Shown: piece after piece, positions 2,866 to 58,514 of the stretch | How the letters are laid out: each line of letters begins with the position of its first letter | Position numbering within the stretch: position 1 is the first letter of the stretch | DNA from: a virus | Length of the DNA stretch: 64,000 bases | IMG/VR virus record: IMGVR_UViG_3300046513_000134 | Span: 36,507-100,506 of that record | Strand: one strand, 5' to 3' | The notes under the pieces: generated by a model | Database searches by the model: none | The model's input: only the letters and a program-made list of their open reading frames with translations | Told to the model about the DNA's origin: nothing | Translations under genes and position numbers: made by a program

Positions 2866-3002
2866 GATTATCGTTCCCTTAGTTTTTAGACCGGTGCCCA
2901 ACGCGTGACATGGCGATTAGTTCCGTAGTCCGATCAACTCCTTCGATCTGGGTCTATAGTCCCATGGGAGCCACTATTCCGCAAGGGGTAATCCAGCGAA
3001 AG

Positions 3003-3662
3003 TTATAGGGCTCCGCGTTCAACCACGAAGCGACGAAACTGTAGTTTTGGGTCATAACGGTCCCAAACTTTCGCCCATACCGCGTATTCCGGGAAGTCTG
3101 GGTCCTTCAGCACGAGTTGCTTCTCGAATGTGACCACCGAAGGAGGTACGCCCACCAGATGGCATACCGTGGTAGCGTAAGGCATGACGGCCAGCGTTTC
3201 CATGATGTGGGTGCGGATCGGCTGGAACTGCTTGGCCACATCTACCGCAAACTCCTCCTTGAACGTGGGGTCGGTGTGTATATGATTGGTAACGTAGCCC
3301 CAGATCGTCTCGTACTGCTTCCAGTCGATGTTGACGCTGTAGCTCATCAGGTCAGGAGCGAGGCGTTCGACGTAGAACTTCGTGTTGAGGGCCTGCACCC
3401 AGATCGTCCAGCACCCCTTGGTATATTCCCATTGGTACACCAGCTTGAAGTAGTTGGACGGCGTCGTGGGTGAGACCGTGGCTGTCTTCAGCCCCGACAG
3501 CTCACTCTGCCATGAAAAGTTGGAGTTGTACCCTTCGATGGCCCGCTTCAGGATCGTTTGACGCTGCTTCAGATAGCACGTGGCAACGGCCGTCAGGAAC
3601 TTTTTGTTGTAGCCGGAAACCTCTGGCCCCGGGGGTATCCCGCCGAGATCGAGTTCGGCCAT
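3003..3662 (-). CDS. hypothetical protein
   Basis: Start MAELDLGG at 3662, coupled to the upstream stop (TGATG). Confidence 0.65.
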   Translation of the reverse strand: MAELDLGGIPPGPEVSGYNKKFLTAVATCYLKQRQTILKRAIEGYNSNFSWQSELSGLKTATVSPTTPSNYFKLVYQWEYTKGCWTIWVQALNTKFYVERLAPDLMSYSVNIDWKQYETIWGYVTNHIHTDPTFKEEFAVDVAKQFQPIRTHIMETLAVMPYATTVCHLVGVPPSVVTFEKQLVLKDPDFPEYAVWAKVWDRYDPKLQFRRFVVERGAL

Positions 3663-4225
3663 CAGCTCTTCTCCCCGCGCTTCAACCGCTCCATGCGACC
3701 GAGGTAATCTTCGTCGTCTTCGAGGTGCTTCCAGCCGGCGACGTAGCGCAGATCGACGTCCGGGTGGTTGGGGATACCCGGCGTGTTGATGACGAACGAG
3801 TTCCGCACGCCGTCCCAATAGGTGATGATGGTGTGGCCAAGCCCAGTCAGCAGCAGGAAGCGTCGCAGGTGCTGCGGTGGGAAGCGATCGATCGAGAACC
3901 ATGTCTCGTAGCGGGTGACGCGGTAGAACGGCGTCCCCTCGTCGGCCCCGTCAGGGGTGGTGTAGAGCCAGTGGTCGCGCAGGATGGTGCCTTCCTGCTG
4001 TTCCTCGGGCGGCAGCACCGCAGCCGGTTGCACGGTGATGATCGGGAAGTTGATGCCCCGCTTGACCGAGTAGCGGATCGGCTCCAGCATCCCCCACGTC
4101 CTGAGACCGAGGGTCAGGCCTGCAGCCCCTAGAGCCAGCCCATATTGACCGGTGACGGCCGCGATGCCGACGACTGATCCTGTGAGTACCATCCCGGCTT
4201 TGATAAGTGTTTTTTCTGAGAACAT
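3662..4225 (-). CDS. membrane-anchored hypothetical protein
   Basis: Two N-terminal hydrophobic segments followed by a soluble domain. Confidence 0.65.
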   Translation of the reverse strand: MFSEKTLIKAGMVLTGSVVGIAAVTGQYGLALGAAGLTLGLRTWGMLEPIRYSVKRGINFPIITVQPAAVLPPEEQQEGTILRDHWLYTTPDGADEGTPFYRVTRYETWFSIDRFPPQHLRRFLLLTGLGHTIITYWDGVRNSFVINTPGIPNHPDVDLRYVAGWKHLEDDEDYLGRMERLKRGEKS

Positions 4226-4671
4226 GCCTTCAGCCCTAATTCGATGATTTCTTCCAAACTTAACCCGGTGTCGCGGACCCGCGCAAACAGTTTAGCGTCG
4301 ATGCTGGTCTTGACGTTCTTCGAGATGCGGCCGGGGGCCTCCCGCTTGGTGAAAGCGATCAGGTAGTCCCGTGCAATTTGTTGCAGATCGGCCGGGGTGA
4401 TCTCCGCACCCGGCAGGGTGACCAATTCGAGCAAGGTCTCCTTGTGCATGTGGCTGTGGTATTGCAGCCCGAGTTTCTTCGCCGTGACGTCGGTCGGGGT
4501 GACGTTGTAGAACCGCCGCAGGGGCGCGCTCCAGTACGAGTTCCTGATCCTGATCAACGGACCTTTGTTCACGGCCTCCAGTACCCGGTACTCAGGCTTG
4601 GTGCGCCCATCCTTGTACCTCGGGTAGACCTTGCCGTTGCGCTTGCGCATGGGGACGACGGTGGCTGACAT
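4129..4671 (-). CDS. putative DNA-binding protein with C-terminal ribbon-helix-helix-like segment
   Basis: Basic N-terminus; KNVKTSIDAKLFARVRDTGLSLEEIIELGLK resembles CopG/CcdA RHH. Confidence 0.5.
   Translation of the reverse strand: MSATVVPMRKRNGKVYPRYKDGRTKPEYRVLEAVNKGPLIRIRNSYWSAPLRRFYNVTPTDVTAKKLGLQYHSHMHKETLLELVTLPGAEITPADLQQIARDYLIAFTKREAPGRISKNVKTSIDAKLFARVRDTGLSLEEIIELGLKACSQKKHLSKPGWYSQDQSSASRPSPVNMGWL
4372..4385. repeat. TGCAA-N4-TTGCA site
   Basis: TGCAATTTGTTGCA, intragenic. Confidence 0.9.
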
Positions 4672-56331: not shown

Positions 56332-56363
56332 GTGCGTTTCCTTTCCGTTACTCTACGCCTAAC

Positions 56364-58475
56364 TCAATCGGCCAGCAGGGTAAACAAGACATGTTCAGGG
56401 TGGATATCTCTGGCAGCACCCTTGAGTTCTACCCCGGCCTTCTTCAGGGCGTTGAGGACGATGTCAGCGGTGGCAGCGCCCCCCATGACGTTTTCAATGA
56501 AGCCCTCGCTCATCGTCGCCGGCCCCGAGAGCAGGTCATTCAGGGTCTTGGCTTCCTTGACCACGATGAACCCGACCTTCTCCAAGGCGTCGAGAATATC
56601 CTCAGACCCCCGGGCGACGAGGATGGTGGTGGGGTCGAGGGTGCCCGACTTCACCTGTGCAATAAGTTGCAGCAGAACCTGATGGTAAGCCTGCTCCATC
56701 GGGTCGGTGCTGGAGAAGATCGTCCGCAACCCCTTGGTCTTGTAAATCTGCATCGGGTTGAGGTCGATCAGGACCGAGCGGTTCAGGGCCTGTGCGCCGA
56801 CGATGCAGAGCACGATGTCATCCGTGGCCACGCCCAGCATTACGTGCATGCCGACATTGACCGCGCAATACTGGGGCAGGGTGTTCTCGTCGGTCTCCAG
56901 CAGGTTGACCTGTTGGTAGGCATCCTCGGCTACGAGGTCGAGGAGCGTCTTCCGCTGTGACCCTGCCCCTTCGATCACTGGGACGTCCAAAGCGATCCAG
57001 ACGCGGCCTGTGGAGCCACAGATCGTGATCGAGACGTCCAGCCCATTCAGGTGGGGCAGCAGGTCGTGTCCGACACCACAGACGCAGGGCTTGTCCATCG
57101 CGCGGGCCACGACGGCGGCGTGTGAGGTCGAGCCCCCGGTGGCCGTCAGGATGCCAACTGCCGCGTTCATGCCGGCGATATCGTCCGGTGTCGTCTCGTG
57201 CGTAACCAGAATGACCTTGTCGCCCTTCTCAGCGGCGGCGACGGCGTCCTTGGACGAATACACCGCGTACCCGGTGGCGACGCCCGGCGAGGCGTTGATC
57301 CCCTTGAACTGCGGTTCCCCCTTGAAGGCCTGATCGACCGAGGGGCGCTTGGTGGTCTTGTACTGGCTGCGGGTGATCCGCCCGAACATCTGCTGGCGGG
57401 TGATATCCCCGGCTTGGAGCATGTCCGTGGCGATCCTGATCGCGGCCGCTGCCGAGCGCTTGCCGACGCGGCTCTGCAAGACGTAAAGCACCCCGTCCTG
57501 AACCGTGAACTCGATATCGACCATATCGTTGTAATGGTTTTCGAGAACGTTGCAGACATACTCCAGTTCGCCGTGAAGTTCGGCCCATGCCGGATCATTG
57601 CTATCCTTCATGGACTGGATCGGCTCTGGGGTCCGTATCCCGGCGACAACATCCTCGCCTTGGGCGTTGATCAGATATTCGCCATACATCCCCGGCTCGC
57701 CGGTCAGCGGGTTGGCTGTGAACAGCACCCCGGTGCCGGAGATATCGTTCATGTTGCCGAAGACCATCGCTTGTATCGTGACGGCGGTGCCGGTCACATG
57801 TTCCAGCTTGTTGATCTTGCGGTAGACCTTGGCGCGTTCCGAGTTCCATGACCGGAAGACCGCGTCGATCGCCACGAAGAGCTGGTCGTCCAGATTGGTA
57901 GGGAACTCGAAGCCCTTGTGGACCTTGAAGGTCTTCAGCATGCCGTCGCAGACGATCTTGAGATCTTCGACCGTCAGGTCGGTGTCGGCGTCGTAGCCCT
58001 TGTCTTCCTTGACCTGTTCCAGCGGCCCGTTCATCAGCTTCTCTTCCAGATCGTAGCCGGTGGTCGAGAGCATCAGGATCAGGCGGCGGTAGCTGTCCCA
58101 TGTGGCGCGTGCCCCGAGACGTTGTTCCCAATCACCGATATTGTGAAGGTTGAGGCCGACATTGAGGATGGTGTCCATCATCCCCGGCATTGAAACCGGA
58201 GCCCCGGAGCGAACCGACAGCAGCGGGTCGTAGCCGAAGTGGTCTTCCATCTTGTTGAGGTGCGGGGTGGCTTCGTAGACAATGTCGTTGACGAACTTGA
58301 CCTGCTTGGTCGTGGGCGACCAGTAGTTCTGGCACATCGAGATCGGGATGATGAAACCGGGAGGAACCGCCAGACCCATGTTGGTCATGAGGGACAGCGA
58401 TGCTGCCTTGCCCCCGACGATTTCCTTATCTGTGGGGACGTCTGTTTCCCCCGTGCCAAAGCTGTAGAATTCCAT
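56364..58475 (-). CDS. PPDK-like dikinase (ATP-grasp + phospho-His domain, no PEP barrel)
   Basis: GGKAA.L, VPPGF, VSVRSGA..SMPGMMDT.LNVG, QAMVFGN, SGTGV.FT, QGEDVVAG, DIEFT, GGSTSHAAVVAR. Confidence 0.9.
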   Translation of the reverse strand: MEFYSFGTGETDVPTDKEIVGGKAASLSLMTNMGLAVPPGFIIPISMCQNYWSPTTKQVKFVNDIVYEATPHLNKMEDHFGYDPLLSVRSGAPVSMPGMMDTILNVGLNLHNIGDWEQRLGARATWDSYRRLILMLSTTGYDLEEKLMNGPLEQVKEDKGYDADTDLTVEDLKIVCDGMLKTFKVHKGFEFPTNLDDQLFVAIDAVFRSWNSERAKVYRKINKLEHVTGTAVTIQAMVFGNMNDISGTGVLFTANPLTGEPGMYGEYLINAQGEDVVAGIRTPEPIQSMKDSNDPAWAELHGELEYVCNVLENHYNDMVDIEFTVQDGVLYVLQSRVGKRSAAAAIRIATDMLQAGDITRQQMFGRITRSQYKTTKRPSVDQAFKGEPQFKGINASPGVATGYAVYSSKDAVAAAEKGDKVILVTHETTPDDIAGMNAAVGILTATGGSTSHAAVVARAMDKPCVCGVGHDLLPHLNGLDVSITICGSTGRVWIALDVPVIEGAGSQRKTLLDLVAEDAYQQVNLLETDENTLPQYCAVNVGMHVMLGVATDDIVLCIVGAQALNRSVLIDLNPMQIYKTKGLRTIFSSTDPMEQAYHQVLLQLIAQVKSGTLDPTTILVARGSEDILDALEKVGFIVVKEAKTLNDLLSGPATMSEGFIENVMGGAATADIVLNALKKAGVELKGAARDIHPEHVLFTLLAD
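56658..56671. repeat. TGCAA-N4-TTGCA site
   Basis: TGCAATAAGTTGCA, in the PPDK-like gene. Confidence 0.9.
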
Positions 58476-58514
58476 GACATAACCCTCCGTGGAAATTGTC
58501 ATTCAGTAGATTGA

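What the first reader, a model, noticed from the sequence alone, without database searches (positions are those of the whole stretch)
2932..58500. Phage CsrA-like protein plus ANGGAG-loop Shine-Dalgarno hairpins: a putative translational regulon
Seen (minus strand): the SD sits in the loop of a short stem before specific genes. TTACC-ACGGAG-GGTAA (6856-6871), TCAAT-ACGGAG-ATTGA (16059-16074), GAAA-AAGGAG-TTTC (19812-19825), GATAA-AGGAG-TTATC (21101-21115), TAGCA-AAGGAG-TGCTA (53996-54011), CTTTCA-AGGAG-TGAAAG (55112-55128), AACC-ACGGAG-GGTT (55785-55798), an imperfect ACGGAG hairpin before the PPDK-like gene (58476-58500), and weaker ones at 4671-4687 and 2932-2948. Stem sequences differ while pairing and loop are kept. 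The capsid, head-accessory and tail-tube leaders I checked lack such a stem. The csrA-like leader itself has ACGGAAAGGA. Established: CsrA/RsmE bind ANGGAN loops overlapping the SD, and most rhizobial-type alphaproteobacteria lack a chromosomal Csr system. Inference: the phage brings its own translational repressor (56050..56331), co-regulating the dikinase, both phosphatases, the 364-aa unknown, the AAA pair and the 398-aa protein. A T4 RegB-like GGAG endonuclease is an alternative reader.
Basis: partly seen in the sequence, partly recalled or inferred. Interest (0 to 1): 0.8.

Follow-up and report, generated by a model that had tools for sequence, protein, structure and literature searches.

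The report
Phage CsrA-like protein and SD-loop hairpins
A 100-kb Rhizobium-type phage places the ribosome-binding site of about 15 early and middle genes in the loop of a short conserved RNA hairpin that matches the best-known CsrA/RsmE binding site, and it encodes an unusual one-chain CsrA relative that is the most likely, but unproven, reader of these hairpins.

Summary
All ten claimed stems exist. Across the genome, 15 of 70 Shine-Dalgarno GGAGs sit in a 5-7 nt loop closed by a stem of 4 or more Watson-Crick pairs, against 2.3 expected; none of 2000 permutations reached this. The excess recurs in RHph_TM16, RHph_Y1_11 and Rhodobacter phage RcZahn. Orthologous leaders keep the hairpin with different or compensated stems.

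The loop register is nearly fixed. 47 of 63 loops are A-N-GGAG hexaloops closed directly by the stem, and 10 are AGGAG pentaloops. This is the published high-affinity RsmE/CsrA consensus.

Four phages that lack the protein show no excess (7 against 3.9 expected).

The 93-aa protein is a true but divergent CsrA-family member: its homologue profile hits only CsrA, RsmE, RsmF and RsmN structures. The AlphaFold model looks like a single-chain pseudo-dimer with one RNA site, a form I found no description of.

The link between protein and hairpins remains inferred, at about 50%. Stenotrophomonas phage DLP_3 has a homologue but no tidy hairpins. The gene always sits in a dikinase-phosphatase module.

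My classification is a new variant of a known kind.

The parts
56050..56331 (-). 93-aa divergent CsrA-family protein (P0001); predicted single-chain pseudo-dimer
   Evidence: Profile of 97 homologues hits only CsrA/RsmE/RsmF/RsmN PDB chains. 92 of 97 members hit Pfam CsrA at E<=1. AF2 pLDDT 94.4. RsmE chain 2jpp_A residues 1-53 align on model residues 39-92 at 1.9 A.
55827..56057 (-). 76-aa ORF whose start overlaps the csrA-like stop by 8 nt (ATGTCTGA); co-conserved, no known family
58476..58500 (-). Imperfect hairpin with ACGGAG loop before the PPDK-like gene (56364-58475): 4 bp, then a 3x3 internal loop, then 3 bp
   Evidence: Identical in TM16 and Y1_11, so conserved but without covariation.
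55785..55798 (-). AACC-ACGGAG-GGTT hairpin before phosphatase 1 (55189-55782)
55112..55128 (-). CTTTCA-AGGAG-TGAAAG hairpin before the 364-aa unknown (54009-55103)
   Evidence: Kept with other stems in Y1_11 (TCTTCA/TGAAGG) and RcZahn (AACC/GGTT).
53996..54011 (-). TAGCA-AAGGAG-TGCTA hairpin before phosphatase 2 (53227-53994); overlaps the upstream stop codon
   Evidence: RcZahn has TAGG-AAGGAG-CCTA.
21101..21115 (-). GATAA-AGGAG-TTATC hairpin before the AAA ATPase (19870-21099)
   Evidence: Y1_11 has GATTA/TAATC, a compensatory change.
19812..19825 (-). GAAA-AAGGAG-TTTC hairpin before the 255-aa protein (19042-19809)
   Evidence: RcZahn has CCATC-AAGGAG-GATGG.
16059..16074 (-). TCAAT-ACGGAG-ATTGA hairpin before the 168-aa protein (15549-16055), 9 nt after a TATACT -10-like box
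6856..6871 (-). TTACC-ACGGAG-GGTAA hairpin before the 398-aa protein (5652-6848)
   Evidence: RcZahn has TCATC-ATGGAG-GATGA.
4671..4687 (-). TGCAT-TAGGAGT-ATGCA hairpin (7-nt loop) abutting the start of the 180-aa protein (4129-4671)
2932..2948 (-). Orphan GATCGA-AGGAG-TTGATC hairpin (one G.U pair) in a 373-nt intergenic region, not at a called start

Best explanation
This phage lineage carries a set of about 15-20 cis-acting RNA elements. Each is a 4-6 bp stem capped by an A-N-GGAG hexaloop, or less often an AGGAG pentaloop. The loop is the Shine-Dalgarno sequence, and the 3' arm fills the spacer up to 0-4 nt before the start codon. The elements sit in promoter-proximal or intergenic leaders of early and middle non-structural genes: the dikinase-phosphatase module, the AAA pair, the 168-, 180- and 398-aa proteins, and many small early genes.

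Shown: the elements exist, are enriched, have a nearly fixed loop register and keep their structure across orthologues.

Inferred: they are binding sites for a loop-specific RNA-binding protein, and the best candidate is the phage's own 93-aa CsrA-family protein. By fold prediction this protein is a monomeric pseudo-dimer. An N-terminal beta1-beta4 unit packs against a complete C-terminal CsrA unit, leaving one CsrA-type beta1/beta5 GGA-binding surface instead of two. Binding would clamp the weak hairpin over the SD and block 30S entry. As the protein accumulates, translation of early and middle genes would be turned down, in a host that has no Csr system of its own.
For: RNA side:
- Enrichment is 15 vs 2.3 expected, with 0 of 2000 permutations reaching it. 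It replicates in three related phages.
- Orthologues keep the hairpin in 7 of 11 cases in TM16 and 5 of 8 in Y1_11 (binomial p 6e-5 and 2e-4). Compensatory pairs were seen and, within the retained hairpins, no one-sided changes.
- Four RcZahn orthologues at 31-44% protein identity keep a hairpin with unrelated stems.
- 57 of 63 loops use 2 of the 9 registers allowed by the scan: 47 are A-N-GGAG with the stem closing right after GGAG, and 10 are AGGAG.
- Duss et al. 2014 define the RsmE high-affinity site as an ANGGAX hexaloop placed directly on a stem, and hcnA has ACGGAU (PMC4005645).
- ACGGAG is a poorer anti-SD match than AAGGAG, yet it is the commonest loop in the three Rhizobium-type phages.
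- The stems are weak alone, 0.0 to -6.1 kcal/mol, as expected for elements that a protein stabilises.
- Same-host phages TM3_3_9, Y55 and N17 and the distant relative JP1 all lack the protein. Together they show 7 hairpins vs 3.9 expected.

Protein side:
- The profile hits only the 11 CsrA-family PDB sequences, with E from 7e-4.
- The CsrA positions R44, V40, V42, Y48, A36-P37 and R31 correspond to R83, I79, I81, Y87, A75-P76 and R70. R83, A75 and P76 are 90% or more conserved across 97 homologues. R70 reaches that level only in the 13 closest sequences. Y87 and I81 are the majority residue.
- The model is confident: pLDDT 94.4, pTM 0.85.
- The whole RsmE chain aligns on residues 39-92 at 1.9 A, and RsmN on residues 1-87.

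Host and alternatives:
- Rhizobial genomes are reported to lack CsrA (PMC8244774).
- No RegB homologue was found.
Against: - No binding or expression data exist.
- The phages that have both features are all one broad lineage, so co-occurrence is close to a single evolutionary observation.
- DLP_3 has the module and a 113-aa homologue but no tidy hairpins: 2 vs 2.0 in the strict scan, and the looser scan's 8 vs 2.3 are heterogeneous loops.
- In all six independent contexts the gene directly follows the PPDK-like gene. This could mean a module-specific rather than a global role.
- The basic beta1 residues of E. coli CsrA (R6, R7) are not conserved; P0001 has I7 and E8.
- P0001 itself scores only 11.9 bits on Pfam CsrA, against a cut-off of 27.
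- Hairpins are confined to leaders with 25 nt or more of intergenic space, often a few nt after sigma70-like promoters. This would also fit a role at the 5' end of transcripts.
- The structural matches have middling Z scores (4.3-4.9).
- The G.U versus A.C test was uninformative, 6 vs 7.
Confidence: 0.5

Rival explanations
1. The hairpins act in cis without any dedicated protein. They either keep the SD unpaired in a GC-rich, structured mRNA and tune initiation, or they serve as near-5'-terminal stem-loops that slow 5'-end-dependent decay of short-leader transcripts. On this view the CsrA-like protein serves the dikinase-phosphatase module or targets host mRNAs instead.
For: - Hairpins occur only in leaders with 25 nt or more of intergenic gap.
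- Many begin 9-27 nt after CTTGAC-N17-TAGNNT-like or TATACT-like boxes.
- The csrA-like gene is always part of the PPDK module.
- DLP_3 has the protein without tidy hairpins.
Against: - Three other phages of Rhizobium etli or phaseoli, and Agrobacterium phage JP1, show no excess. It is therefore not a general host translation feature.
- The stems are too weak (mostly -1 to -4 kcal/mol) to protect a 5' end. Some are internal to operons: 53996-54011 overlaps the upstream stop codon.
- Simple SD exposure does not explain why 57 of 63 loops use the one or two registers that match the RsmE consensus.
- It also does not explain why A is kept before a non-pairing C in ACGGAG.
Confidence: 0.27
2. Another trans-acting factor reads the hairpins. 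This could be a phage or host endoribonuclease of RegB-like specificity for GGAG, or another phage RNA-binding protein among the roughly 15 core genes restricted to the hairpin-rich phages.
For: - T4 RegB cleaves GGAG in early SDs (my own knowledge).
- Fifteen of 45 core genes, mostly of unknown function, are shared by the four hairpin-rich phages and absent from DLP_3 and JP1 by BLAST.
- The imperfect co-occurrence with the CsrA-like family leaves room for another reader.
Against: - Pfam RegB has no match at E<=10 anywhere in the genome.
- No other candidate has a recognisable RNA-binding fold. Pfam found nothing for the 76-, 168-, 180-, 255-, 364- and 398-aa proteins.
- The loop geometry specifically matches CsrA/RsmE.
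Confidence: 0.17
3. The inverted repeats act as double-stranded DNA operators, or they are chance or compositional artefacts.
For: The G.U versus A.C test does not favour RNA on the sense strand, 6 vs 7.
Against: - Arm sequences differ completely between sites while complementarity is kept. A sequence-specific DNA-binding protein would need conserved arms.
- All permutation controls reject chance.
- Non-SD GGAGs show only the background rate of 4.6%.
Confidence: 0.04

Closest known systems
RsmE/CsrA repression of hcnA-type mRNAs (Pseudomonas protegens; PDB 2JPP) and the ANGGAX-hexaloop consensus
   Same: - The SD lies in an A-N-GGA-X hexaloop placed directly on a short stem. hcnA has ACGGAU; here the loops are ACGGAG, AAGGAG or ATGGAG.
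- Pentaloop variants also occur.
- The protein keeps the CsrA beta5 motif, including the R44 equivalent.
   Different: - The targets are the phage's own early and middle genes, one hairpin per leader.
- The protein has 93 aa with four extra strands and is predicted to be a monomer with one site rather than a two-site homodimer.
- No sponge RNA was found.
- Binding is untested.
RsmN/RsmF of Pseudomonas aeruginosa (PDB 4KJI, 4K59): rearranged CsrA family members
   Same: - It is a divergent CsrA relative with an insertion inside the canonical beta1-beta5 order.
- It is the best sequence-like structural match: 22% identity, 51 residues aligned, 2.0 A, Z 4.9.
   Different: - RsmN/F insert an alpha-helix between beta2 and beta3 and remain homodimers.
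- Here four beta-strands (residues 27-66) are inserted between beta3 and beta4 and appear to replace the partner subunit.
csrA alleles on phages and plasmids (Sobrero and Valverde 2020; RsmQ of plasmid pQBR103; pMBA19a of S. meliloti)
   Same: A mobile element brings a CsrA-family regulator, sometimes into hosts without a chromosomal csrA (PMC7366521; PMC9928087, listed).
   Different: - Those are canonical 60-75 aa CsrA proteins found by PSI-BLAST.
- No set of cis targets on the element itself was described for them.
- This family is not picked up at Pfam threshold and is annotated as hypothetical protein.
Phage translational shut-off systems: T4 RegA and RegB, and MS2-type coat protein with its operator hairpin
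   Same: A phage-encoded factor would act at ribosome-binding sites of many early mRNAs. For MS2, the factor binds one hairpin as a specific operator.
   Different: - There is no homology; RegB is absent.
- Recognition here would be of a GGA loop by a CsrA fold.

Membership tests
CsrA/RsmA protein family (Pfam PF02599) | Score above the Pfam gathering threshold | tested here: not met
   P0001 scores 11.9 bits (E 0.23) against a cut-off of 27. However, 92 of 97 homologues hit CsrA at E<=1, best 1.7e-9. The family profile hits only CsrA-family PDB chains, with E from 7e-4 to 0.27.
CsrA/RsmA protein family (Pfam PF02599) | Conserved RNA-binding residues of beta1 (L2, L4, R6, R7) and beta5/helix (V40, V42, R44, I47) | tested here: inconclusive
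   Present: L3, I5, I79, I81, R83 (90% or more conserved), Y87 and A75-P76. Absent: the basic pair (I7, E8) and the I47 equivalent (N86).
CsrA/RsmA protein family (Pfam PF02599) | Protomer of five beta-strands followed by a C-terminal helix | tested here: met
   AF2 model residues 39-92 align with all 53 residues of RsmE 2jpp_A at 1.9 A (Z 4.3), and residues 37-93 with 1vpz_A at 1.8 A (Z 4.9). The Z scores are middling, so the match counts only together with the sequence profile.
CsrA/RsmA protein family (Pfam PF02599) | Interdigitated homodimer with two identical RNA-binding surfaces | tested here: inconclusive
   The single chain folds confidently into a compact nine-strand sandwich (pTM 0.85). 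Residues 1-36 occupy the place of a partner's beta1-beta4, which predicts one site. The oligomeric state was not established.
CsrA/RsmA protein family (Pfam PF02599) | Binds GGA in RNA loops and represses translation | not testable with these tools
   This needs EMSA or ITC and reporter assays.
High-affinity CsrA/RsmE RNA target | ANGGAX hexaloop placed directly on a stem, overlapping the SD | tested here: met
   47 of 63 hairpins in four phages are A-N-GGAG hexaloops with the stem closing right after GGAG, and 10 are AGGAG pentaloops. All are at SD distance, with the stem ending 0-7 nt before the start. The consensus is from PMC4005645.
RsmN/RsmF subfamily | Alpha-helix inserted between beta2 and beta3 | tested here: not met
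   DSSP on the model shows four extra beta-strands (30-35, 40-45, 50-53, 56-60) and only a C-terminal helix at 84-91.
T4 RegB-type GGAG endoribonuclease system | A RegB homologue (PF10715) in the phage | tested here: not met
   No match at E<=10 in the complete 100.5-kb genome.
Csr/Rsm system with sponge sRNA (CsrB, RsmZ) | A non-coding RNA with many GGA loops | tested here: not met
   No Rfam family reached gathering score in the window. No intergenic region of 150 nt or more has a cluster of ANGGA hairpins.

The most novel reading that the evidence does not exclude
A previously undescribed, widespread viral branch of the CsrA family has 235 clusters at 50% identity and is mostly viral. It has turned the obligate two-site homodimer into a single-chain, one-site RNA binder. 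Phages use it as their own global translational repressor. It reads about 15-20 consensus ANGGAG hairpins on early and middle genes to time gene expression, in alphaproteobacterial hosts that have no Csr system.
Probability: 0.4. Interest if true: 0.8.

Novelty: new variant of a known kind. Interest (0 to 1): 0.68.

Why it matters
If the link holds, three things would follow:
- It would be the first phage-internal CsrA-type regulon: a virus bringing both the regulator and a set of high-affinity operators into hosts that lack the system.
- It would be the first monovalent member of a family whose mechanism is usually explained by two-site bridging.
- It would assign a function to a large family of viral proteins annotated as hypothetical.

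It would also offer a compact, orthogonal pair of translational repressor and hairpin operator for alphaproteobacteria.

Even without the protein link, the hairpins are a rare case of a short, weak RNA structure whose conservation can be shown by covariation across phage orthologues. They also flag true start codons, including some unannotated small ORFs.

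Tried and rejected
- Homodimer prediction (complex prediction with two copies of the family alignment) gave no verdict. It says nothing either way.
- Foldseek against the PDB gave nothing below E 0.1; RsmF was only rank 13. The best VIA matches were generic beta-sandwiches (CcsBA Z 9.2, class II fusion proteins Z about 7), which I read as a common arrangement.
- hhalign of residues 1-36 against 37-93 found no internal sequence repeat (probability 1.9%). Whether the extra strands arose by duplication or by insertion is open.
- PHROGs gave no match for P0001.
- The search for homologous proteins found only the Y1_11 homologue. The full HMMER search was needed to find more.
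- The search for related loci failed with the larger alignments and with the single proteins P0005, P0010 and P0012. With a 5-sequence alignment it gave 5 viral contigs. The metagenome scan returned the same contigs again.
I therefore could not test directly whether the host lacks CsrA.
- The G.U versus A.C asymmetry test was uninformative. The first version was biased by terminal mismatches. The corrected version gave 6 vs 7.
- A at -2 is commoner in hairpin SDs than in other SDs, but within a single genome the difference is weak (p 0.01-0.4).
- I found no sponge-like RNA and no RegB.
- I rejected the reading that gene class alone explains the pattern, and also the reading that gene class is irrelevant. 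Hairpins need free intergenic space, yet 12 structural leaders with such space have none.

Full report
WHAT THE WINDOW IS. The window is bases 36507-100506 of a complete 100,506-bp virus record. Its closest isolates are Rhizobium phages RHph_TM16 (79% DNA identity over the tested 4 kb) and RHph_Y1_11. Rhodobacter phage RcZahn is more distant. Nearly all genes lie on the minus strand. My own codon-usage gene call gives 149 minus-strand genes.

THE OBSERVATION.

I scanned every GGAG on the sense strand of the whole genome for a 5-7 nt loop containing it, closed by Watson-Crick pairs.
- Of 70 GGAG at Shine-Dalgarno distance from a called start, 15 have a stem of 4 bp or more and 11 of 5 bp or more.
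- Of 325 other GGAG, the counts are 15 and 5.
- Permuting alignment columns among the 70 leaders keeps position-specific composition. It gives 2.3 and 0.6 expected.
- Swapping 3' flanks or shuffling flanks gives similar numbers.
- None of 2000 trials of any control reached the observed counts.

The excess recurs in TM16 (17 vs 2.1), Y1_11 (13 vs 2.3) and RcZahn (18 vs 3.0).

About ten further hairpins precede small early genes upstream of the window.

CONSERVATION. Orthologous leaders keep the hairpin far more often than the per-gene base rate: 7 of 11 in TM16 and 5 of 8 in Y1_11, p 6e-5 and 2e-4.
- Where the stems differ, both sides changed. Examples are GATAA/TTATC to GATTA/TAATC and GATC/GATC to GACC/GGTC.
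- Within the retained hairpins, no one-sided change was seen.
- In RcZahn, at 31-44% protein identity, the 364-aa gene, phosphatase 2, the 255-aa gene and the 398-aa gene all carry a hairpin with an unrelated stem.
- Arms that differ completely between sites while pairing is kept argue for RNA structure rather than a DNA operator.
- A G.U versus A.C test gave no further help, 6 vs 7.

ANATOMY.
- Hairpins occur only where the upstream gap is 25 nt or more. That is 14 of 36 such leaders with GGAG. There are none among 70 translationally coupled starts.
- Most lie shortly after sigma70-like boxes such as CTTGAC-N17-TAGNNT or TATACT. Some are internal to operons: 53996-54011 overlaps the preceding stop codon.
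- The 3' arm ends 0-4 nt before the start codon in 14 of 15 cases.
- The stems are weak on their own, 0.0 to -6.1 kcal/mol.
- Twelve structural-module leaders with free space have no hairpin, against 15 of 53 non-structural ones, p = 0.054.
- The loop register is almost invariant.

That register is the consensus that Duss et al. (2014) derived from six RsmE-RNA structures. High affinity needs an ANGGAX hexaloop placed directly on top of a stem. Omitting N, or inserting nucleotides between loop and stem, lowers affinity. The hcnA SD hairpin has ACGGAU (PMC4005645). ACGGAG is the commonest loop in the three Rhizobium-type phages, although it pairs less well with the anti-SD than AAGGAG does. RcZahn uses AAGGAG.

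THE PROTEIN. P0001 (56050-56331, 93 aa) alone barely touches Pfam CsrA, at E 0.23.
- A full HMMER search found 235 clusters at E <= 1e-3, nearly all of 85-120 aa.
- The nearest ESM-Atlas clusters are 73-86% viral and named hypothetical protein.
- Of 97 aligned homologues, 92 hit Pfam CsrA, best 1.7e-9.
- Their profile hits eleven PDB sequences, all CsrA, RsmE, RsmF or RsmN.
- HMMER aligns residues 3-20 to CsrA 2-19 and residues 64-93 to CsrA 25-54.
- This puts the nearly invariant R83 on the key R44, I79 and I81 on V40 and V42, A75-P76 on A36-P37, and Y87 on Y48.
- The R6/R7 pair is not kept.

AlphaFold2 with the alignment gives a confident model, pLDDT 94.4 and pTM 0.85. It has nine strands and one C-terminal helix.
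- VIA-align superposes the entire RsmE chain of 2JPP (53 of 53 residues, 1.9 A) on residues 39-92. It superposes P. aeruginosa RsmA 1VPZ on residues 37-93 at 1.8 A.
- RsmN/RsmF align across residues 1-87 at 22% identity.
- I read this as an N-terminal beta1-beta4 unit packed against a complete C-terminal CsrA unit. It is a single-chain copy of the CsrA dimer core that lacks one beta5 and one helix.
- In CsrA each RNA site is formed by beta1 of one chain and beta5 of the other (my own knowledge, consistent). Such a protein would therefore have one site. That site would be built from the two most conserved segments of the family, M1-L3 and A75-G84.
- This is inference from a model. No internal sequence repeat is detectable. 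The Z scores are middling.
- I found no description of a monomeric or pseudo-dimeric CsrA in the held literature.

Evidence for:
- The RNA geometry matches CsrA/RsmE specifically.
- Rhizobial genomes are reported to lack CsrA (PMC8244774), and S. meliloti likewise (PMC7366521).
- No RegB is present.
- Phages lacking the family show no excess. These are Agrobacterium phage JP1, a distant relative with the same genome plan (1 vs 1.9), and Rhizobium phages TM3_3_9, Y55 and N17 (4 vs 1.0, 2 vs 0.45, 0 vs 0.55).
- Two metagenomic lineages with 40-43% identical homologues show 3 vs 0.5 each within 17-20 kb.

Evidence against:
- All family-positive phages belong to one broad lineage.
- Stenotrophomonas phage DLP_3 has a 113-aa homologue that keeps the beta1 and beta5 motifs, but it has no tidy hairpins.
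- In all six independent contexts the gene directly follows the PPDK-like gene. It is followed by the 76-aa ORF, a DSP-type phosphatase, the 364-aa protein and a second phosphatase. A module-specific role is therefore possible.

I put the protein-hairpin link at about one half. I put the reality of the hairpins as selected RNA elements above 0.85.

COMPARISON AND NOVELTY.
- CsrA targets with the SD in an ANGGAX loop are textbook.
- Canonical csrA genes on phages and plasmids have been catalogued, and a plasmid RsmQ has been shown to act on the host (PMC7366521; PMC9928087).
- New here is a phage genome that carries a covarying set of consensus operators on its own genes, together with a divergent CsrA relative of unusual predicted architecture.
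- My classification is a new variant of a known kind.

Noticed in passing
window 51529-58475, also L003, L005, L006, L008-L012, and DLP_3 86161-91328: The gene order PPDK-like (PPDK_N plus the PEP-utilizers mobile domain only), CsrA-like, 76-aa ORF, DSP/PTP-SAK phosphatase, 364-aa unknown, second phosphatase is conserved in every phage and contig that carries the CsrA-like gene. In DLP_3 the module has moved next to the AAA ATPase.
   Followed up: partly
window 56050-56057: The 76-aa ORF starts inside the last codons of the csrA-like gene (ATGTCTGA overlap). It is co-conserved in TM16, Y1_11, RcZahn and L010 but was not detected in DLP_3. It could be a partner or antagonist. It has no Pfam family.
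   Followed up: partly
window 55782-55830, 41944-41980, 24177-24210, 300-335; genome 69139 region of TM16: The palindromic box TTGCA-N4-6-TTGCA(C) recurs 10-30 nt upstream of several starts, including next to the phosphatase-1 hairpin. Other readers of this scan noted the same box as a genome-wide lattice.
   Followed up: no
window 39119-39150: A 12-bp GC-rich stem followed by TTTT (GAAAGCCCTCTT-GGAAAC-AGGAGGGCTTTT) looks like an intrinsic terminator. Its 3' arm contains the SD of the next gene (start 39116).
   Followed up: no
G000:C1:29184-29197, 14627-14640, 6074-6089 (outside the window): Orphan ANGGAG hairpins lie in stretches my gene call left intergenic. The first two are followed within 2-3 nt by ATG, which suggests unannotated small ORFs. 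The hairpin may be a useful marker of true starts.
   Followed up: no
window 55101-55128: The 364-aa gene most likely starts at ATG 55103 rather than GTG 55118, judging by N-terminal alignment with Y1_11 and RcZahn. This leaves an unusually long 14-nt SD-to-AUG spacing, 6 nt of which is the 3' arm of the hairpin.
   Followed up: partly
window 12035-12049: A CAACG-GGAGG-CGTTG hairpin lies 24 nt upstream of the helicase start (12016), too far to be its SD. It is absent as a hairpin in TM16 and Y1_11.
   Followed up: no
window 5652-6848 and 44950-46044: TM16 annotates the orthologues of these two proteins as putative ribonuclease E/G family. Pfam finds nothing in the 398-aa one at E <= 1e-3, so that annotation is unsupported for it.
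   Followed up: partly
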